Of a stretch of 43,728 nucleotides of DNA, positions 1 to 43,728 are shown piece by piece. The translations under genes were made by a program, and so were the position numbers. The notes under the pieces are model-generated. The model was not told the DNA's origin and made no database searches. It was given only the letters and a program-made list of their open reading frames with translations. Position 1 is the stretch's first letter. Every line of letters begins with the position of its first letter. Source of the DNA: a virus (lineage: Duplodnaviria; Heunggongvirae; Uroviricota; Caudoviricetes); the IMG/VR virus record IMGVR_UViG_3300015181_000003, positions 1 to 43,728 of that record; one strand, given 5' to 3'.

Positions 1-341
1 AATTTGTTAAACGCTTCCTTAGAGAAAGGCTCGTCGTCAAAGCTCCAGCCGTTTACGACTTCTGCCGCAAGTTGCCGGTTGAGGTCTTCCGCCAGTTCGT
101 TAACCGCCAGGTTATATTCAGTATAGTCACCAGATTCTTTGGCGGCTTTTTCCAGTTCTTCAAAACGCGCCAACCCGCGACGGTACGCAATAATGAAAGC
201 ACGCCCCGCTTTAACGGCGACATCCGCATCGGGACTTACAACGTTAAGCCACTCACCGGAGTCTTCGCCGTTTGGCAGCAGAATAGGCATCTTCTTGCCT
301 ACCAGTGCTTTCTCTTCGAAATAAAAATCAGAAAGTTTCAT
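1..341 (-). CDS. tail assembly chaperone (gpG-like), 5' portion; gene crosses the window junction
   Basis: Minus-strand ORF from ATG at 341..339 (AAGGA 7 nt upstream) runs off the window start. Because 1..141 repeats 43588..43728, it continues to a TAG at 43509..43511 (420 nt, 139 aa, in frame). Sits immediately upstream of the tape measure gene. Confidence 0.5.
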   Translation of the reverse strand, partial: MKLSDFYFEEKALVGKKMPILLPNGEDSGEWLNVVSPDADVAVKAGRAFIIAYRRGLARFEELEKAAKESGDYTEYNLAVNELAEDLNRQLAAEVVNGWSFDDEPFSKEAFNK

Positions 342-10124: not shown

Positions 10125-10586
10125 TTATTCTGGTTTAGTGACCTTCGCCGCTTTACTGACGGCATCTACACCATTGGCATCGGTAACTTTAACGAAGTAT
10201 TCACCAGCCGCGTTAACCGTCAGAGACAAAGCCTCTTCCGGGGCGTTTACGACTTCCTTACCGTCTTTGTACCAGGTCAGTGTATATGGTGCTTTGCCCG
10301 CCTTAACTTCGACAGTGATAGTTGCGCTGTTGTCTGTCAGTTCAGTGTCCTGAGGTTGTACAGAGAAATACACATCTCCAGCATCCGCCAGATACGGAAT
10401 TTCATAAAGCATGCCCGCCGCCGGCAGCGCAATACCCGTCTTGTCCGCAAACGGCATATCGTCTACTGGTGTACCTAGTACACTTTCGTCCTCAATAAAT
10501 ACCACGTTCTCGCCAGAGCCGGACACGCGGGCGTACTGGACTACACGACGCGACGGCACATCAGTTACTTTGAAAAAGCCCATCAT
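10125..10586 (-). CDS. Ig-like domain protein (153 aa)
   Basis: Contains TLTWYKDGKEV Ig-like signature; start overlaps the stop of the head morphogenesis gene. Confidence 0.45.
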   Translation of the reverse strand: MMGFFKVTDVPSRRVVQYARVSGSGENVVFIEDESVLGTPVDDMPFADKTGIALPAAGMLYEIPYLADAGDVYFSVQPQDTELTDNSATITVEVKAGKAPYTLTWYKDGKEVVNAPEEALSLTVNAAGEYFVKVTDANGVDAVSKAAKVTKPE

Positions 10587-11662
10587 TATTCCCCTTTCAG
10601 ATAATCAGCAACACGTTTATCTAGTTCCGCCATCTGCTTAAGCGTAAGCGGATTCCCGAAACCATCTACAGATATTACGCGAAACTCTTCCGGCGATATA
10701 CCGCTGTTACGGAAAATCTTACCCCGCACCGGGCCGAGCGCCTGGTCCTGAAACCATGCCGGTTGTTGTTTAAGGAACTCATAATAGGTGGTATCTGCGC
10801 TTACCTGGGTACCTCCGTCCGCGCCCTTAGCCACACGTTTTGCGCCTTTATCGAGGAAGTCGAACTCTGAACTTATCACCGGTGCCGTGGTACTTCGGCA
10901 ATTCGGATGGGCGGGTGGCATTGGCCCTTTACCAATTTCCCACGTCATTCCGTCCCTGGCTCTGCAAATCGTACTGGTACGGCTATCGAGCGTTGACACC
11001 CACTCGTATTTCTCGATGATGTCGTCGTTCTGGTGGTACGTCTCGTTACGGGCTTCGTTGGATACGTGAGACAGCGCGGTGCGGATTACGGTAGCTGCGT
11101 TTCGTTCAGAGATGTCAGCCAGCCCGCCGGCACCAACAACATTCTTAACAATCTGCCGTGTAGTCTGGCCTTGGACAAAGCCCATCTTAACGCCGGTTAC
11201 GAGGCGCGCGACTTCCGTTTCACCCCAGCCCGACATCAGCTTAGTGAAGTCAACCGGCTTATCACTTAGTGACAGAGGCTGAAACTCGGCGGCGGCCCAC
11301 ACCTGTTCGGCGGTAGGCGTAACAAATTCCGCGTTAACGTTGGCGGTCAGGGTCTTCGCGTTCCACTCAGCTTCATACGCCGCCAGTTCCTTAAGGTCTT
11401 CTGTCAGCTTTGTCTGCCAGTCACCTGTAAGTCCGGTCAGTGCTTCTTCCAGGTCGCGTAATAGTTTATTCAGCCGCGCAGTGCTTCGCCCGTCGTCACC
11501 GAACAACAGCACCTGCCGTTTGATTTCGTCTCGCATTTCCTGAATGAACGGTGCGAGGTCTTTCACCTCGCCTGATGCGGTGCGTTGCAGCCAAATCTGG
11601 TGGCTGATTAGGGATGTAAGTAAGCTCATAGATAAACCCTGTGGCGCTAAAGTTAATAGCAT
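10586..11662 (-). CDS. head morphogenesis protein (Mu gpF / SPP1 gp7-like)
   Basis: 358 aa with STLDSRTSTICRARDG motif typical of this family; follows portal. The start may be the internal ATG at 11629 because a hairpin sits 9 nt upstream of 11662. Confidence 0.7.
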   Translation of the reverse strand: MLLTLAPQGLSMSLLTSLISHQIWLQRTASGEVKDLAPFIQEMRDEIKRQVLLFGDDGRSTARLNKLLRDLEEALTGLTGDWQTKLTEDLKELAAYEAEWNAKTLTANVNAEFVTPTAEQVWAAAEFQPLSLSDKPVDFTKLMSGWGETEVARLVTGVKMGFVQGQTTRQIVKNVVGAGGLADISERNAATVIRTALSHVSNEARNETYHQNDDIIEKYEWVSTLDSRTSTICRARDGMTWEIGKGPMPPAHPNCRSTTAPVISSEFDFLDKGAKRVAKGADGGTQVSADTTYYEFLKQQPAWFQDQALGPVRGKIFRNSGISPEEFRVISVDGFGNPLTLKQMAELDKRVADYLKGE

Positions 11663-15384: not shown

Positions 15385-15617
15385 TCTTCCTTCTCCTTTT
15401 TAGCAATGCGTTGCTCTGTTTTAGTGATACCCCGGCGCGTGAATAGCACCGGGCTTGTCTTAACGTGAGTCATCAGACGATTGTTATAAATTACGTGGCG
15501 CTCGCAATAGACGTCTTTGCTGTACTTCGCAATCGTCATTTCGTTGATGCCGGTTTGTCGGCATGTCTCCGCCATCGTACCAAATTCTTTAATCAGGTTC
15601 GGAATGCTGGTGATCAT
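15381..15617 (-). CDS. hypothetical early protein (78 aa)
   Basis: ATG overlaps the upstream stop (ATGA); track ORF extends to 15641 with a non-ATG start. Confidence 0.4.
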   Translation of the reverse strand: MITSIPNLIKEFGTMAETCRQTGINEMTIAKYSKDVYCERHVIYNNRLMTHVKTSPVLFTRRGITKTEQRIAKKEKEE

Positions 15618-15811
15618 TCTGGTGCAATCTCCGTTATGCACATGATTATAGCCTTTGCGCCGTGTGGTGTATTTTCTGTTGCCTCGCGTTCAATTACCCT
15701 AAGCTCATCCAGCGTGAACTTTTCCCCGTTTTTAGGTGACGCGGTGCAATTGCCAAACCCGGAGCAACTCACGCCATCAGACCAGTTATAGCTAATAAAG
15801 AACTGTTTCAT
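15614..15811 (-). CDS. hypothetical early protein (65 aa)
   Basis: ATG with AGGA SD overlapping the upstream stop; track ORF extends to 15835. Confidence 0.4.
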   Translation of the reverse strand: MKQFFISYNWSDGVSCSGFGNCTASPKNGEKFTLDELRVIEREATENTPHGAKAIIMCITEIAPE

Positions 15812-15978
15812 CCTAAGAAATTCCTCGTTGTCCACATCGCATTCGGATATTTGTTATCGCGGTCCTGCACTACGGCAATCATGTTTCCACGTTGCACCAG
15901 GCAGAAGTGCCGTTGTTGCTCGCCGTTGTAGCGACGCCAGATTGCTTCTTCGATTGCTGCGTTGATGTCACTAAACAT
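15808..15978 (-). CDS. hypothetical early protein (56 aa)
   Basis: Not in the track; ATG overlaps the stop of 15971..16228 and its stop overlaps the next ATG, consistent with a coupled operon. Confidence 0.3.
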   Translation of the reverse strand: MFSDINAAIEEAIWRRYNGEQQRHFCLVQRGNMIAVVQDRDNKYPNAMWTTRNFLG

Positions 15979-18790: not shown

Positions 18791-19084
18791 TTATTTATGC
18801 CTCCAGATGTATTGTCGTCTCTGTGGTTTCGTCGGGATATCTTCATAACCCAGCGATTTCCAGTAATTAAATAACCGATTAGCGATTGCTGCTCGTTCCT
18901 TTGTTTTAAACTCACCTAGATTCACAGCTTTCCCGTTCTGGAACCCACAGGCGCGGATAGCTTTACGCCGTTCTTGTATCTCGGGGTACAGCGCATTACG
19001 GCGGCGCTTATGTATTCTGGTGTTCGCTCTCGGTGACAGCGGCGTAAGGCCGCTTCGTTTCAGGATGTCAGTTGCGAGGCTCAT
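18791..19084 (-). CDS. hypothetical basic protein (97 aa)
   Basis: ATG at 19084 overlaps the upstream stop; Arg/Lys-rich; track ORF extends to 19135 with a GTG start. Confidence 0.4.
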   Translation of the reverse strand: MSLATDILKRSGLTPLSPRANTRIHKRRRNALYPEIQERRKAIRACGFQNGKAVNLGEFKTKERAAIANRLFNYWKSLGYEDIPTKPQRRQYIWRHK

Positions 19085-19278
19085 AATAACCCCAAAGTTT
19101 CGAGTTTCTCGCATAGAGAATCTGGTAATTCGCACAGATTAACCTGGTCGGTTAGTAGGCATAGAACGGCGTATAGGTCCTCATAGTCTTCGTAACTTAC
19201 CCAGCCGCCGTCCGTATCTTCCTCTAAGTCAATATGGCCAGTAACACAGTCTTCTTTTAACTCATATCTCTGCAGCAT
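19081..19278 (-). CDS. hypothetical acidic protein (65 aa), paralog of 19278..19532
   Basis: Starts MLQRYELKED...GGWVSYEDYEDL, similar to the neighbouring protein; ATG overlaps the upstream stop. Confidence 0.4.
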   Translation of the reverse strand: MLQRYELKEDCVTGHIDLEEDTDGGWVSYEDYEDLYAVLCLLTDQVNLCELPDSLCEKLETLGLL

Positions 19279-19532
19279 CACTCTACCCCTTCCACATGTG
19301 TGACCGACCCACAGTTCGCGCACTCGACGTAATCAGGGAACTGGTCCTTGTATTTCTGTAACTCGGCGTTTACTTCTGCCAGTCTTGCCACAAGCCCTTC
19401 TATCTCCATGTCCGTAGTTGTTATGTAGTCCTGGAAACTGTTGTCCAGCTCCGCGTAGTCTTCGTAACCTACCCAATCACCTTCATCGTGCGGCCCTATT
19501 AAACCACCTTGTAATAAGTATCTCTGTACCAT
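19278..19532 (-). CDS. hypothetical acidic protein (84 aa), paralog of 19081..19278
   Basis: Starts MVQRYLLQGG...GDWVGYEDYAEL; AGGAGA SD; C-terminal CxxC. Confidence 0.4.
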   Translation of the reverse strand: MVQRYLLQGGLIGPHDEGDWVGYEDYAELDNSFQDYITTTDMEIEGLVARLAEVNAELQKYKDQFPDYVECANCGSVTHVEGVE

Positions 19533-19533
19533 G

Positions 19534-19737
19534 TTATTTCTCCTGTTTACCAAGTCGCTTAGGTGAGCAGATAGCACGTACCTCTGAGTCGTTGGGCTTG
19601 TCGCCCTGAAACAGGAAGTGCGCGTTCTCTGCGGCGCGTGCCGCTGACTGGCACGCCCCCATAGAGTAAAACGTTTCTGCTGTCGCGAGGTGCATCTGGC
19701 CTGCGGACAGTACCCATATAAAGAGGATGCTGGTCAT
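19534..19737 (-). CDS. small secreted protein with signal peptide (67 aa)
   Basis: N-terminal hydrophobic signal-like segment MTSILFIWVLSAGQMHLATA; ATG overlaps the upstream stop. Confidence 0.4.
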   Translation of the reverse strand: MTSILFIWVLSAGQMHLATAETFYSMGACQSAARAAENAHFLFQGDKPNDSEVRAICSPKRLGKQEK

Positions 19738-27928: not shown

Positions 27929-27957
27929 TTGACACCTGAATAGTTAGCTATTATAGT
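27929..27957 (+). promoter_or_regulatory. sigma70-like promoter with embedded operator
   Basis: TTGACA at 27929..27934, 17-nt spacer containing GAATAG-N4-CTATTA, TATAGT at 27952..27957. Confidence 0.5.
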
Positions 27958-28013: not shown

Positions 28014-28652
28014 ATGGGTATCAAAGTTAAACTGAGCAACGTGCGTATCGGATGGGTAGACGTTTATAAGAAAGCCGCGGACCGTGTAAACAGTCAGGGC
28101 CAACAAGTAGAAGGCCAATACCAGCTTACCGCGTATCTTGATAAAGATGACCCGCAAATTGAGAAAATTGAAGACGCGGTAACTGAGGTTATGACGGAAG
28201 CATTAGGTAGCGCTTCTGCCGCCGAAAAATGGATGTCAAAAAACTTCGGCTTCGGAAACCATGCGGATAAATGCGCATTCCGCGACCTAGCACAGCGCGA
28301 CTCACCGATTGAAGGTCTTGAGGAAGGTTTGTACTTCATGGCTAAGAGCCGTAAGCAACCTATGATTGCAACTTCTGAAGGTGAGGTGCAGTGTCAACGC
28401 GGCGGCCGTGTAGTTAAGGGTCTTACCGAAGCAGGGGATGATGTAGAAGGTAAAGAAGTTTATTCTGGTTGCTACGCTAATATTGTAGTTGATGTCTATT
28501 GGTACTCAACTTATAAAAACCTCGGGGTAGAACTACTCGGTGTTCGCTTTAAGGATGACGGTGAAGCGTTCGGCGGGGCCGGTGCTACCGTAGACCTTAA
28601 TGACCTTGAGGATGATGAACCAGCACCGCGCCGTGAACGCCGTCGCCGCTAA
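28014..28652 (+). CDS. ssDNA-binding protein-like (DUF2815-type)
   Basis: 212 aa following the Cas4-like nuclease gene (a recurring pairing in phage replication modules); acidic C-terminal stretch DLNDLEDDEP. Confidence 0.45.
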   Translation: MGIKVKLSNVRIGWVDVYKKAADRVNSQGQQVEGQYQLTAYLDKDDPQIEKIEDAVTEVMTEALGSASAAEKWMSKNFGFGNHADKCAFRDLAQRDSPIEGLEEGLYFMAKSRKQPMIATSEGEVQCQRGGRVVKGLTEAGDDVEGKEVYSGCYANIVVDVYWYSTYKNLGVELLGVRFKDDGEAFGGAGATVDLNDLEDDEPAPRRERRRR

Positions 28653-28671: not shown

Positions 28672-28696
28672 AAGGCCCTTCATTGGGCCTTTTTAC
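28672..28696 (+). terminator. rho-independent terminator
   Basis: Stem AAGGCCC / GGGCCTT with loop TTCATTG followed by T5. Confidence 0.6.
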
Positions 28697-28706
28697 CGGA
28701 GTCAGA

Positions 28707-29181
28707 ATGGAACATATAAAAGATTTTCTAAGCTACGACCGAGAGACAGGGGTATTCACGTGGATACAGCCTACTTACCGTCGAGGGCGACCGGGAGACA
28801 TCGCGGGGTGCATCAATAGTAGTGGATACTGGCGAATTCCGTACATGGGTCGATATTACATGGCGCACAGGCTAGCGTGGTTTTTCGAGTATGGTGAATG
28901 GCCCGAAGGCCCTCTTGACCATATAAACCGTGACAGGTTAGACAATAGGATTTCTAACCTAAGGAAAGCAACAACCGCTGATAATGTGCGAAACGCTAAA
29001 AATAAGGGAGCTAGAACAGGAGTTAAGGGGGGTAGTTAAAAACGGCAACCGATTTTACGGGCGTGTGCATTTTAACTACAAAAGTTATAACGCCGGTAGC
29101 TACGGAACTCTTGAAGAAGCAGAAAGCGCTGTAAAGAAATTAAGAGAAAAACTGCACAAGGAATTTTATTGCCATGACTAG
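28707..29181 (+). pseudogene. HNH-AP2 homing endonuclease, split by a frameshift in a G6 run
   Basis: Frame 1 (28707..29039) carries the HNH motif YMAHRLAWFFEYGEWPEGPLDHINRDRLDNRISNLR. Frame 2 (28984..29181) carries an AP2-like domain GVVKNGNRFYGRVHFNYKSYNAGSYGTLEEAESA. Frames switch at GGGGGG 29027..29032; one extra G would fuse them. Confidence 0.55.
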
Positions 29182-31372
29182 TTTATTATACCTGGATACC
29201 GAGACGTTCTCTGGAGCGGACTTAAAGAAAGTCGGGTCGTATGCGTACGCGGAGCACCCAACGACAGAGGTTATAATTTGCACATATGCCGTTGATGATG
29301 GTCCTGTAGAAGTATGGGATTGCACTTCCGAACCAGTAATGCCAATAAGCCTACGTGTTGCGCTCCGTAATGTTATGCGCGGACGTATGAAAATCGTGGG
29401 CCATAACTTTTTAATGTTCGACCGCCTCATCATGAAACACTGCTGGGGTTTTGATATTCCCGTAAGTAACACCATTGATACGATGATTTGGGCGTTTCGT
29501 CACGCGCTGCCGGGTTCTCTCGATGCCTTGTGCCAAGTGCTGGGCGTATCTGCGGACAACGCGAAAGATAAACGCGGCAAGGCGCTGATTAAGCGTTTTT
29601 CTAAACCTACGCCAAAGAACTACAAAATTCGCCGGTACACCGCCGAGACACACCCTGATGAGTGGGCGCTGTTCATCAAGTACGCCGTGAGTGACATCAC
29701 TGCGATGCGTGAAGTATTCCATAAGCTGCCGCGGTGGGGTAACTCTGAGTTCGAGGACCGTGTACTGGAACTCGACCAGTTAATCAATGACCGCGGGTTT
29801 AAGGTTGACGTGGCACTGGCAGAAGCCGCGATTGAAGCCGTGGAGAAACACAAAGCACAGTTACAGGAAGAAGCCCAACGCAAATACGGCGGCTCGCTTA
29901 CCGGTAAAGACTTCCTTCCGATTCTACGTGAACTGGCTCCTGCGCACCGAATACACAACGCACAGAAATCGACGCTGAATGACCTGTTGGCAGACGATGA
30001 TTTACCTGACGACGCCCGCACGATTATCGAAATGCGACTCGGGGCCGCGTCCACCGCGTCAACGAAATATAACCCGCTGCTGTTGGGCCGCTCGTCGGAC
30101 GACCGCCGTCGTGGTTGCTTGCAGTACGGCGGGGCAAAACGCACTCTGCGATGGGCAGGTAAAGGCTTCCAGCCGCAGAACCTCGCGCGCGGGTACTATC
30201 ACGATGACGAACTGGATAAAGGCATTTCAGCGTTACTTAAGGGTCGCGCTCATCGCCGTTTCGACGTAGCCAAGCTAACGGCATCGACGGTTCGTAGCTG
30301 CATTATCCCGGAAGCAGGACATAAGTTTGTCGTCGCCGATTACTCGAACGTTGAAGGCCGGGGGCTTGCGTGGCTGGCTGGCGAAGAAACCGCGCTCGAT
30401 ACGTTCCGCGCTGGACTGGATATTTACTGCGTAACAGCAGGTAAGATGTTCGACATGGACCCCGACGATATTAAGAAAAACTTCAAGGAAATCAGACAGA
30501 TAGGCAAGGCTTGCGAGCTTGGCCTCGGCTATGAGGGCGGCGTCGGAGCGTTCGTTACATTCGCCAAAAACTTAGGTCTTGACCTTATTGAGATGGCAAA
30601 AACAATGGACGGTACATTCCCCGACCACATCTGGGCCGCTACCTCACGTGGGTATGAGTGGGCGCGAATTCAGGAAGCAAAGCGACCACCGCATCCGGGT
30701 GAAAAGGATGACAGACCATCGTATATTCTTGATAAGAAAGTGTGGCGCACATGTGACGCAATCAAGCGTATGTGGCGCGAGTCACACCCCGAAACAGTAG
30801 CGTTCTGGCGCGACCTTAAAGATGGAATCTTGGCCGCTGTTCGTAATCCTGGTCGTGAATTTTGGGCGGGAGCACACTTACGCAGGAATGGGGAAAGGGC
30901 CATCCGCATATGGCGTACTGTTGAATTTGATTCGTCCGGTAGGAAGGTTCCTGGTTGGTGGTTGTGTATGGAGTTGCCGTCAGGTCGCATCCTCTCGTAT
31001 CCGGGAATCGGGGTTAGTGTGACAAAGGAAACAGATGAAGACGGACGGGTGAACACAAATGTGCGAATCAAGTATCAAGGCGAAAACCAGTTAACCCGCC
31101 AATGGACTACCCTGTATACCCACGGCGGCAAAGCCTGTGAAAACATTGTTCAAGCGTTGTGCCGTGATTTACTCGCATATGCGATGATTAATGTTGAGGG
31201 TGGCGGGTACCCCATCGTGCTTTCGGTACACGATGAACTGGTGTGCGAAACTCCAGATGCGCCGGAATACAATGTCGCTGAACTCGAGCGGTTGATGTGC
31301 GAATTACCGGAATGGGCGGAGGGGTTCCCTCTTGTGGCGGAAGGACAGGAGTTAAAACGTTATGCTAAGTAA
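29174..31372 (+). CDS. DNA polymerase, family A, with 3'-5' exonuclease domain
   Basis: 732 aa; N-terminal exonuclease-like motif LYLDTETFS; long polymerase body. Confidence 0.85.
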   Translation: MTSLLYLDTETFSGADLKKVGSYAYAEHPTTEVIICTYAVDDGPVEVWDCTSEPVMPISLRVALRNVMRGRMKIVGHNFLMFDRLIMKHCWGFDIPVSNTIDTMIWAFRHALPGSLDALCQVLGVSADNAKDKRGKALIKRFSKPTPKNYKIRRYTAETHPDEWALFIKYAVSDITAMREVFHKLPRWGNSEFEDRVLELDQLINDRGFKVDVALAEAAIEAVEKHKAQLQEEAQRKYGGSLTGKDFLPILRELAPAHRIHNAQKSTLNDLLADDDLPDDARTIIEMRLGAASTASTKYNPLLLGRSSDDRRRGCLQYGGAKRTLRWAGKGFQPQNLARGYYHDDELDKGISALLKGRAHRRFDVAKLTASTVRSCIIPEAGHKFVVADYSNVEGRGLAWLAGEETALDTFRAGLDIYCVTAGKMFDMDPDDIKKNFKEIRQIGKACELGLGYEGGVGAFVTFAKNLGLDLIEMAKTMDGTFPDHIWAATSRGYEWARIQEAKRPPHPGEKDDRPSYILDKKVWRTCDAIKRMWRESHPETVAFWRDLKDGILAAVRNPGREFWAGAHLRRNGERAIRIWRTVEFDSSGRKVPGWWLCMELPSGRILSYPGIGVSVTKETDEDGRVNTNVRIKYQGENQLTRQWTTLYTHGGKACENIVQALCRDLLAYAMINVEGGGYPIVLSVHDELVCETPDAPEYNVAELERLMCELPEWAEGFPLVAEGQELKRYAK

Positions 31373-43508: not shown

Positions 43509-43728
43509 CTACTTTTCCTGTAATGCCTTGCGCTCAGCGTTATGGAACGCCGCCACCTGGGTTCCAAGCCCTTTGAACTGGTCTAGCAATTTGTTAAACG
43601 CTTCCTTAGAGAAAGGCTCGTCGTCAAAGCTCCAGCCGTTTACGACTTCTGCCGCAAGTTGCCGGTTGAGGTCTTCCGCCAGTTCGTTAACCGCCAGGTT
43701 ATATTCAGTATAGTCACCAGATTCTTTG
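43509..43728 (-). CDS. tail assembly chaperone (gpG-like), 3' portion
   Basis: Continuation of the ORF starting at 341 across the junction; 43588..43728 duplicates 1..141; stop TAG at 43509..43511. Confidence 0.5.
   Translation of the reverse strand, partial: KESGDYTEYNLAVNELAEDLNRQLAAEVVNGWSFDDEPFSKEAFNKLLDQFKGLGTQVAAFHNAERKALQEK

What the first reader, a model, noticed from the sequence alone, without database searches (positions are those of the whole stretch)
28683..29181. HNH-AP2 homing endonuclease split by a frameshift in a G6 homopolymer
The HNH domain (28707..29039) and an AP2 domain (28984..29181) are in adjacent frames that switch within GGGGGG at 29027..29032. One additional G would give a continuous protein of about 158 aa. 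Either a homopolymer miscall, a decaying selfish gene, or a slippage-regulated gene. It sits between the SSB-like gene and the DNA polymerase gene, a typical homing-endonuclease insertion point.
Basis: seen in the sequence. Interest (0 to 1): 0.5.

Follow-up and report, generated by a model that had tools for sequence, protein, structure and literature searches.

The report
Frameshifted HNH-AP2 homing endonuclease gene
A small selfish nuclease gene that sits just before the DNA polymerase gene of an E. coli phage carries one extra G, which cuts off its DNA-binding half; this is an ordinary broken copy, or possibly an assembly error, of a gene that is intact in every relative.

Summary
The split is real in the sequence. 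ORF 28707..29039 encodes 110 aa with an HNH_3 domain, then stops. The rest of the protein runs in the +1 frame to 29181, and the frames switch in GGGGGG at 29027..29032.

One more G (G7) gives a stop. One fewer (G5) gives 157 aa, and two more (G8) give 158 aa. The G5 product is 100% identical to the HNH endonuclease of Escherichia phage P AB-2017.

The window is a complete, circular MEGAHIT contig of a Kagunavirus. All 15 independent relatives that carry this gene have GGGGG or GGGAG and an intact 157-aa ORF. The truncated product is on record on this contig only.

The C-terminal part is an AP2 domain by family profile and predicted fold, though not by Pfam on the window's own sequence.

The gene behaves like a mobile cassette:
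- It is present or absent at one fixed slot.
- It is 98-99.6% conserved between divergent flanks.
- It is linked to a distinct allele of the first ~240 nt of polA.

I found no sign of programmed frameshifting. Most likely this is a very young G5-to-G6 slippage mutation that inactivates the gene (about 0.5) or an assembly artefact (about 0.4). Only the reads can decide. Interest is low.

The parts
28014..28652 (+). Upstream neighbour: gp2.5-like ssDNA-binding protein gene (212 aa, DUF2815/Enc34_ssDNA-bd).
   Evidence: Pfam PF10991 at E 1.5e-15. The identical protein occurs on 13 contigs, and all the others lack the HNH gene.
28672..28694 (+). Terminator-like hairpin with stem AAGGCCC/GGGCCTT, a 6-nt loop and a T5 tail. 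It forms the conserved left border of the variable slot. Homology with HNH-less relatives ends at 28696.
   Evidence: Folds at -13 kcal/mol, z -2.4. It is 100% conserved in more than 100 Kagunavirus records and annotated as a terminator in fBC-Eco01. The break in homology is at 28696. The simple terminator scan did not call it.
28698..28701 (+). Shine-Dalgarno GGAG, 5 nt before ATG 28707.
   Evidence: Read from the sequence. It is conserved in all aligned relatives.
28707..29039 (+). Frame-0 ORF of the endonuclease gene as it stands: 110 aa holding the HNH_3 (HNN-type) catalytic domain (residues 51-95, nt 28857..28991), then two wrong codons (GGT AGT) and TAA.
   Evidence: All family-invariant catalytic residues (H54, D71, H72, N80, N84, N93, N96) are present.
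29027..29032 (+). G6 run, the site of the 1-nt insertion. Relatives have GGGGG (6 loci) or GGGAG (9 loci), read as AAG GGN GTA = K-G-V.
29032..29181 (+). +1-frame continuation encoding the AP2-type DNA-binding domain (three strands plus a helix, residues 109-153 of the repaired protein). Its stop, TAG 29179..29181, overlaps the polA start in ATGACTAG.
   Evidence: The family HMM matches this frame at E 7e-14. The family profile hits AP2/ERF structures, with 7wq5 at E 4.8e-9. The AlphaFold model has pLDDT 94.8, and Foldseek places it 0.8-1.2 A from the AtERF1 and TEM1 AP2 domains.
29174..29413 (+). First ~80 codons of polA, a discrete allele that travels with the HNH gene. It is the likely co-conversion tract or cleavage-resistant target allele.
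   Evidence: 88-100% nt identity to HNH-bearing phages but 37-79% to HNH-less ones. Beyond about 29414 both classes are equally similar to the window.
29174..31372 (+). Downstream neighbour: family A DNA polymerase gene (732 aa).
   Evidence: Pfam PF00476 and PF01612.

Best explanation
The locus is a free-standing homing endonuclease gene of the HNH(HNN)-AP2 family. It sits in the variable slot between the SSB-gene terminator and polA of a Kagunavirus.

In relatives it encodes a 157-aa protein: an N-terminal HNH_3 nuclease plus a C-terminal AP2 DNA-binding domain. It spreads between phage genomes together with the first ~240 nt of polA.

In this genome, replication slippage lengthened a G5 run (AAG GGG GTA) to G6. 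Ribosomes now read GGG GGT AGT TAA and release a 110-aa protein. That protein keeps the catalytic motif but lacks the AP2 domain, so the endonuclease has most likely lost site-specific binding and homing activity.

This would be the first step of the usual gain-fixation-decay cycle of selfish nuclease genes. The phage itself is not harmed, because polA has its own unstructured translation start.

Shown: the gene family, the domain content, the insertion relative to all relatives, the mobility signature, and the lack of recoding signals. Inferred: that the extra G is real in the phage population, and that the truncated protein is inactive.
For: Insertion relative to relatives:
- G5 restores a 157-aa protein 100% identical to AQN31995.1 of phage P AB-2017.
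- All 15 independent relatives are intact, with GGGGG or GGGAG.

The whole gene is functional in relatives:
- pN/pS is 0.04 for the HNH part and 0.02 for the AP2 part.

Mobility:
- The slot is empty in K1G and GZMU_E2010 and holds unrelated 51-aa or 92-aa ORFs in other phages.
- The HNH gene is 97.7-99.6% identical across genomes whose SSB genes are about 60% identical and whose distal polA is 58-92% identical.
- The window's exact SSB protein is otherwise found only next to HNH-less slots.
- A polA 5' allele is linked to the HNH gene.

For the extra G being real:
- The contig is named k141 and has a 141-nt terminal overlap, which marks a MEGAHIT short-read assembly.
- No other gene is frameshifted against two reference genomes, although the window holds 95 homopolymer runs of 5 nt or more. 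An indel-prone platform is therefore unlikely.

For polA being unharmed:
- The polA start region folds no better than shuffled sequence, z +1.7.

Precedents:
- ICP1 gp115/gp116 is an HNH + AP2 homing endonuclease gene split by a frameshift (PMC10448857).
- Xanthomonas phages carry truncated HNN-AP2 genes (PMC2248197).
Against: - The allele is unique. The 110-aa and 65-aa products are on record on this one contig only, among about 15 billion proteins.
- Downstream of the shift there are zero nonsynonymous differences from the ten closest relatives. That is what an assembly or base-calling error would also produce.
- The family is under strong purifying selection, so a fixed null allele is somewhat unexpected.
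- Neither the reads nor the coverage could be inspected.
- Loss of activity of the truncated protein is inferred, not tested.
Confidence: 0.5

Rival explanations
1. Assembly or base-calling artefact. The phage really has G5 and an intact 157-aa endonuclease identical to that of P AB-2017. The extra G arose in sequencing, or from a minority or erroneous path chosen by the assembler.
For: - A single-base length change in a homopolymer fully explains the split.
- The repaired protein is 100% identical to a known one found on 21 other contigs.
- There is no decay downstream.
- No independent contig carries G6.
Against: - A MEGAHIT k141 contig implies short, accurate reads, where indels at a 6-nt run are uncommon. 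This is an inference plus general knowledge of the platforms.
- None of the other 94 homopolymer runs of 5 nt or more breaks a gene that is conserved in the two reference genomes.
Confidence: 0.4
2. Leaky or regulated expression. The G run lets a small fraction of ribosomes shift +1 (P-site tRNA-Gly moving from GGG to GGG), or RNA polymerase slip, or the run toggle between G5 and G6 in the population. Low amounts of full-length endonuclease would still be made, as with herpes simplex thymidine kinase G-run mutants.
For: - A +1 shift on G GGG G allows perfect re-pairing and would give exactly the relatives' protein.
- UAAGGGGGGU resembles a Shine-Dalgarno sequence, the stimulator used in prfB (sequence).
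- Low-level net +1 frameshifting on G runs has a precedent in HSV thymidine kinase (PMC5009743).
Against: - The split is not conserved: 0 of 15 relatives share it, and 9 have the interrupted run GGGAG.
- The A-site codon GGU is a common one, and there is no stop or rare codon at the shift site.
- At the AGU-UAA position, re-pairing in the +1 frame is poor.
- There is no stable structure downstream, z -0.19.
- G6 is shorter than the runs known to give useful transcriptional slippage or phase variation (general knowledge).
Confidence: 0.06
3. Two-piece enzyme. The HNH domain (110 aa) and the AP2 domain (65-aa ORF from ATG 28984) are made as separate polypeptides that work together.
For: Both ORFs exist and both were called as genes by one pipeline or another.
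Against: - ATG 28984 has no Shine-Dalgarno sequence and lies inside the HNH coding part.
- The same ATG is present, out of frame, in intact relatives, so it is fortuitous.
- No relative has a two-gene arrangement.
Confidence: 0.02

Closest known systems
HNH endonuclease gp57 (AQN31995.1) of Escherichia phage P AB-2017, with orthologues in fBC-Eco01, vB-Eco-KMB36, vB_VIPECOMC04, vB_VIPECOTPH05A and EM1
   Same: Same slot between the SSB terminator and polA, and the same 8-nt overlap with the polA start. The gene is 90-98% identical in nucleotides. The protein is 100% identical to AQN31995.1 once one G is removed.
   Different: Those copies are intact at 157 aa. The window has one extra G and stops at 110 aa.
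IPA-HNH homing endonuclease genes of Vibrio phage ICP1, in particular gp115/gp116 (PMC10448857)
   Same: N-terminal HNH plus C-terminal AP2 architecture. gp115/gp116 is likewise split into an HNH ORF and an AP2 ORF by a frameshift and was read as an inactivated homing endonuclease gene. Such nuclease genes mark the boundaries of genetic exchange between phages.
   Different: The ICP1 proteins are too divergent for the Pfam HNH_3 model, whereas this one matches it strongly. The phage lineage and the insertion site also differ.
HNN-AP2 endonucleases of Xanthomonas oryzae phages Xp10, OP1 and Xop411 (PMC2248197), and the HNH-AP2 family of Magnani et al. 2004
   Same: The same motif set (HRLAW, WP, DNR, NLR, N...N) followed by AP2. 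Intact and truncated copies coexist, which those authors read as a gain-then-decay series.
   Different: Those truncated copies are old and degenerate. The window's copy has a single lesion and no other decay.
I-HmuI (PDB 1u3e), the HNH homing endonuclease of Bacillus phage SPO1
   Same: The family profile matches its HNH core at E 1.6e-7. It is also associated with a phage DNA polymerase gene.
   Different: I-HmuI is encoded inside an intron and uses a helix-turn-helix DNA-binding module rather than AP2. The window's gene is free-standing.
Herpes simplex virus thymidine kinase G-run frameshift mutants (PMC5009743)
   Same: A one-G length change in a G run, with the possibility of low-level compensating ribosomal frameshifting.
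   Different: That case is eukaryotic translation on a 7-8 G run, and residual activity was shown by experiment. Nothing of that kind is shown here.

Membership tests
HNH_3 (PF13392) HNH/HNN endonucleases | Match to the family model above the curated threshold | tested here: met
   57.2 bits against a cut-off of 24.8, E 1.3e-15, residues 51-95 covering the full model. PHROG 99 'HNH endonuclease' at E 7.6e-59 over residues 2-156 of the repaired protein.
HNH_3 (PF13392) HNH/HNN endonucleases | Catalytic D-H ... N ... N motif retained | tested here: met
   H54, D71, H72, N80, N84, N93 and N96 are invariant in 61 homologues and present in the window. The family profile aligns to the I-HmuI HNH core.
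HNH_3 (PF13392) HNH/HNN endonucleases | Metal-dependent DNA nicking or cleavage | not testable with these tools
   Needs a biochemical assay.
AP2/ERF DNA-binding domain (PF00847) | Match of the protein's own sequence to the Pfam model | tested here: not met
   No AP2 hit at E up to 1 for the repaired protein or for the 65-aa ORF.
AP2/ERF DNA-binding domain (PF00847) | Homology to AP2 domains at the family level | tested here: met
   33 of 61 full-length homologues match PF00847 (best E 2e-10) in the aligned C-terminal region. The family profile hits WRI1 (7wq5, 4.8e-9), TEM1 (7et4, 2.8e-5), ERF096 and AtERF1.
AP2/ERF DNA-binding domain (PF00847) | Three-stranded antiparallel sheet packed on one helix | tested here: met
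   The model (pLDDT 94.8) has strands at 109-112, 115-122 and 125-132 and a helix at 135-153. Foldseek gives rmsd 0.8 A to 1gcc and 0.9-1.2 A to 7et4/7et5, probability 1.00, although E-values are weak (0.016-0.19) for so small a domain.
Free-standing homing endonuclease gene | Presence/absence polymorphism at one fixed site among related genomes | tested here: met
   Same junctions in all carriers. The slot is empty in K1G and GZMU_E2010 and holds other small ORFs in Schulenburg, SHAK7693 and HSE2.
Free-standing homing endonuclease gene | Gene more conserved than its flanks, with a linked flanking tract (co-conversion) | tested here: met
   The HNH gene is 97.7-99.6% identical, against about 60% for the SSB gene and 58-92% for distal polA. 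The polA allele over 29174..29413 is linked to HNH presence.
Free-standing homing endonuclease gene | Site-specific cleavage of the endonuclease-less allele, and transfer in co-infection | not testable with these tools
   Needs cleavage mapping and mixed-infection crosses.
Programmed +1 ribosomal frameshift (prfB type) | Frameshift conserved among homologues | tested here: not met
   0 of 15 relatives are split. The split products are found on this contig only.
Programmed +1 ribosomal frameshift (prfB type) | Shift-prone P-site codon next to a slowly decoded A-site codon, plus a stimulator | tested here: inconclusive
   GGG to GGG re-pairing is possible and a Shine-Dalgarno-like UAAGGGGGG is present. 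However, the A-site codon GGU is common, the stop codon follows AGU, which re-pairs poorly, and there is no downstream structure, z -0.19.
Homopolymer phase-variation (contingency) locus | A long run kept across relatives, with varying length | tested here: not met
   The run is only 5-6 nt. 9 of 15 relatives have GGGAG instead, and no length other than 5 is seen outside the window.

The most novel reading that the evidence does not exclude
The G6 allele is real and not dead. A low level of +1 ribosomal slippage on G GGG G, perhaps helped by the Shine-Dalgarno-like UAAGGGGGG, would still produce a little full-length endonuclease. The extra G would then act as a throttle on a costly selfish nuclease, by analogy with herpes simplex thymidine kinase G-run mutants. 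Alternatively, the run toggles between G5 and G6 in the phage population as an on/off switch.
Probability: 0.05. Interest if true: 0.45.

Novelty: already known. Interest (0 to 1): 0.15.

Why it matters
It matters little beyond correct annotation. The two ORFs should be annotated as one frameshifted HNH-AP2 homing endonuclease gene, a pseudogene or a sequencing error, and not as two genes.

The useful by-product is a cleanly delimited mobile cassette in Kagunavirus: 28697 to about 29413, made of the endonuclease gene plus the first 80 codons of polA. It predicts that the enzyme's target lies in the 5' end of polA of endonuclease-less relatives. This family of small HNH-AP2 nucleases has hardly been characterised biochemically, and that prediction is a testable handle on it.

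Tried and rejected
- Exact-pattern scans of the viral contig collection for the G6 and G5 contexts found nothing.
- One degenerate-pattern scan each of the metagenome and genome collections gave one further intact relative (GGGAG, L023) and two chance matches in unrelated organisms. No second G6 allele was found.
- I looked for the same phage strain in other assemblies through its exact polA protein, to read the G run there. Only this contig carries that protein.
- I scanned the whole window with an HMM of the family for paralogues or remnants. There are none besides the two pieces.
- I screened the window for other frameshifted genes against two complete relatives. Two extra signals came up, at 19174..19532 and 15547..15938. 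They turned out to be tandem small paralogues and an opposite-strand spurious ORF, not frameshifts.
- The simple terminator scan did not report the hairpin at 28672..28694, although it folds well and is annotated as a terminator in a relative.
- I considered that the frameshift might uncouple polA translation and harm the phage. I rejected this as unlikely because the polA start region is unstructured and has its own AAGGA.
- I considered a -2 shift and reinitiation at GTG 29065. Both would need poor re-pairing or would yield a fragment lacking the first AP2 strands, so I did not pursue them.

Full report
**What the sequence shows**

GGGGGG lies at 29027..29032. Starting from ATG 28707, which is preceded by GGAG at 28698..28701, frame 0 reads ...GGA GTT AAG GGG GGT AGT TAA. 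It ends at 29039 after 110 codons.

The +1 frame is open from upstream of the run to TAG 29179..29181. From the run onward it reads GTA GTT AAA AAC... = VVKNGNRFYGRVHF....

I rebuilt the gene with 4 to 8 Gs:
- G5 gives an uninterrupted 157-aa protein.
- G8 gives 158 aa.
- G4, G6 and G7 all terminate at 108-110 aa.

The gene needs one G fewer.

ATG 28984 of the second ORF has no Shine-Dalgarno sequence. It is also present, out of frame, in intact relatives.

**What the genome is**

The window is contig k141_25491 of ENA assembly ERZ27315466. Its first 141 nt equal its last 141 nt. That is the signature of a circular MEGAHIT assembly, so it is a complete genome of 43,587 unique bases.

It is a Kagunavirus (Guernseyvirinae, K1G-like E. 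coli siphophages). The best GenBank relatives are about 91% identical over 88% of the first 20 kb, and the genome itself is not in the phage collection.

**What the gene is**

The 110-aa product matches Pfam HNH_3 at 57 bits, against a cut-off of 24.8. The repaired protein matches PHROG 99 'HNH endonuclease' end to end at E 7.6e-59.

The repaired protein is identical, residue for residue, to AQN31995.1 of phage P AB-2017. That sequence occurs on 21 other contigs.

The AP2 label needed testing, because the window's own sequence gets no Pfam AP2 hit. Three lines of evidence support it:
- In an alignment of 61 full-length homologues, 33 match PF00847 in the aligned C-terminal region.
- The family profile hits plant AP2/ERF structures, with WRI1 at E 4.8e-9 and also TEM1, ERF096 and AtERF1. 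Its N-terminal half hits the homing endonuclease I-HmuI.
- An AlphaFold model (pLDDT 94.8) has three strands and a helix at residues 109-153. These superpose on AtERF1 and TEM1 AP2 domains at 0.8-1.2 A.

The G run encodes the K-G-V junction just before the first AP2 strand.

**Comparison with relatives**

Six GenBank Kagunaviruses and nine metagenomic contigs carry the gene at the same place, which makes 15 independent loci. All have a 157-aa ORF. Six have GGGGG and nine have GGGAG.

The closest locus, L015, differs from the window's gene by one synonymous substitution plus the extra G.

Among relatives, pN/pS is 0.04 for the HNH part and 0.02 for the AP2 part, so the whole protein is under selection. 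Downstream of the shift, the window has no nonsynonymous difference from its ten closest relatives.

The 110-aa and 65-aa products are on record for this contig only. No other G6 context was found in three sequence collections.

**Evidence that the gene is mobile**

Homology between the window and HNH-less relatives stops at 28696, right after a conserved terminator-like hairpin at 28672..28694 (-13 kcal/mol, z -2.4). The slot that follows varies between phages:
- It is empty in K1G and GZMU_E2010.
- It holds a 51-aa ORF in Schulenburg and SHAK7693.
- It holds a 92-aa ORF in HSE2.

Across carriers, the HNH gene is 97.7-99.6% identical to the window's. Their SSB genes are about 60% identical and distal polA is 58-92% identical. 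The window's exact SSB protein is otherwise found only on contigs without the HNH gene.

The first ~240 nt of polA (29174..29413) form a discrete allele:
- It is 88-100% identical to HNH carriers.
- It is only 37-79% identical to non-carriers.
- At the protein level the figures are 98-99% against 70-73%.
- Beyond about 29414 the two classes are equally similar to the window.

This is the pattern expected from homing with co-conversion. It suggests, by inference, that the enzyme's target lies in the polA 5' end of endonuclease-less phages.

**Is the frameshift programmed?**

I found no support for that:
- No relative shares the frameshift, and most lack an uninterrupted run.
- A GGG-to-GGG +1 slip is possible, but the next codon, GGU, is a common one.
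- The stop codon follows AGU, which re-pairs poorly in the +1 frame.
- The 88 nt downstream fold no better than shuffled sequence, z -0.19.

Low-level compensating frameshifting on G runs is known from herpes simplex thymidine kinase mutants (PMC5009743). A trace of full-length protein therefore cannot be excluded, but nothing here points to it.

**Real mutation or artefact?**

Arguments for a real mutation:
- The assembler signature implies short, accurate reads.
- None of the other 94 homopolymer runs of 5 nt or more disrupts a gene conserved in two complete relatives.

Arguments for an artefact:
- The allele is unique.
- There is no downstream decay at all.
- The repaired product is a perfectly known protein.

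A very young mutation predicts the same three things. I put a real G5-to-G6 slippage mutation at about 0.5, an artefact at about 0.4, and leaky or other readings at under 0.1. Only the reads can settle it.

**Consequences if the mutation is real**

The 110-aa protein keeps every invariant catalytic residue but loses the AP2 domain. By analogy with other modular homing endonucleases, that domain supplies target binding. The gene is therefore most likely a null allele at the very start of decay.

In intact relatives the endonuclease stop overlaps the polA start (ATGACTAG). In the window, ribosomes stop 135 nt earlier. The polA start region is unstructured (z +1.7) and has its own AAGGA, so polymerase synthesis is probably unaffected.

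**Comparison with what is known**

The HNH-AP2 architecture is an established family of homing endonuclease genes in phages, cyanobacteria and protists (Magnani et al. 2004, as cited in PMC10448857).

Frameshift-split or truncated copies have been described in Vibrio phage ICP1 (gp115/gp116, PMC10448857) and in Xanthomonas phages (PMC2248197). The intact orthologue is annotated in GenBank.

The finding is therefore ordinary. It is a correct identification with a wrong repair direction, and it has low interest apart from the neatly delimited cassette and the predicted target in polA.

Noticed in passing
window 1..141 and 43588..43728: The first and last 141 nt are identical. This is the terminal overlap of a circular MEGAHIT (k=141) contig, so the window is a complete Kagunavirus genome of 43,587 unique bases.
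   Followed up: yes
window 29174..29413: The first ~80 codons of polA, including the Exo I D-x-E motif region, exist as two discrete alleles in Kagunavirus. One is strictly linked to the presence of the HNH-AP2 gene. The boundary near 29414 is sharp.
   Followed up: yes
window 28697..29173, compared with L006-L009, L021 and L027-L034: The slot between the SSB terminator and polA is a hot spot for gene turnover. It is empty, or holds a 51-aa, 64-aa or 92-aa ORF of unknown function, or holds the HNH-AP2 gene, always with the same left junction at 28696.
   Followed up: partly
window 28014..28652: The window's SSB gene (212 aa) is only about 60% identical in nucleotides to the 208-210-aa SSB genes of the ten metagenomic HNH-bearing relatives compared (the six GenBank carriers were not compared). 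It encodes a protein identical to that of 12 other contigs, all HNH-less. Against the seven of those loci that were aligned, the nucleotide differences are 4-11%, all synonymous. This shows mosaicism with a recombination joint at the terminator.
   Followed up: partly
window 27929..27957: A near-consensus sigma-70 promoter-like site (TTGACA, 17 nt, TATAGT; 11 of 12 matches) lies just upstream of the SSB gene.
   Followed up: no
window 18791..19135 (- strand): A 114-aa ORF (PHROG 9632, unknown function) contains a stretch, KAIRACGFQNGKAVNLGEFKTKERAAIANRL, that looks AP2-like by eye. It has no Pfam hit and no match to the HNH-AP2 family HMM.
   Followed up: partly
window 19081..19323 and 19278..19577 (- strand): Two adjacent small ORFs (80 and 99 aa) are paralogues of each other and of one 122-aa ORF in phage GZMU_E2010. 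This is a tandem duplication rather than a frameshift.
   Followed up: partly
L011 500..994, L016 5662..6177, L017 405..761, L021 4887..5381 and 10580..11077: Related Kagunaviruses carry further HNH endonuclease genes at other fixed slots: before the DUF2800 nuclease gene, after polA, and before the helicase gene. The window has none of these, because the family HMM finds only the split gene.
   Followed up: partly
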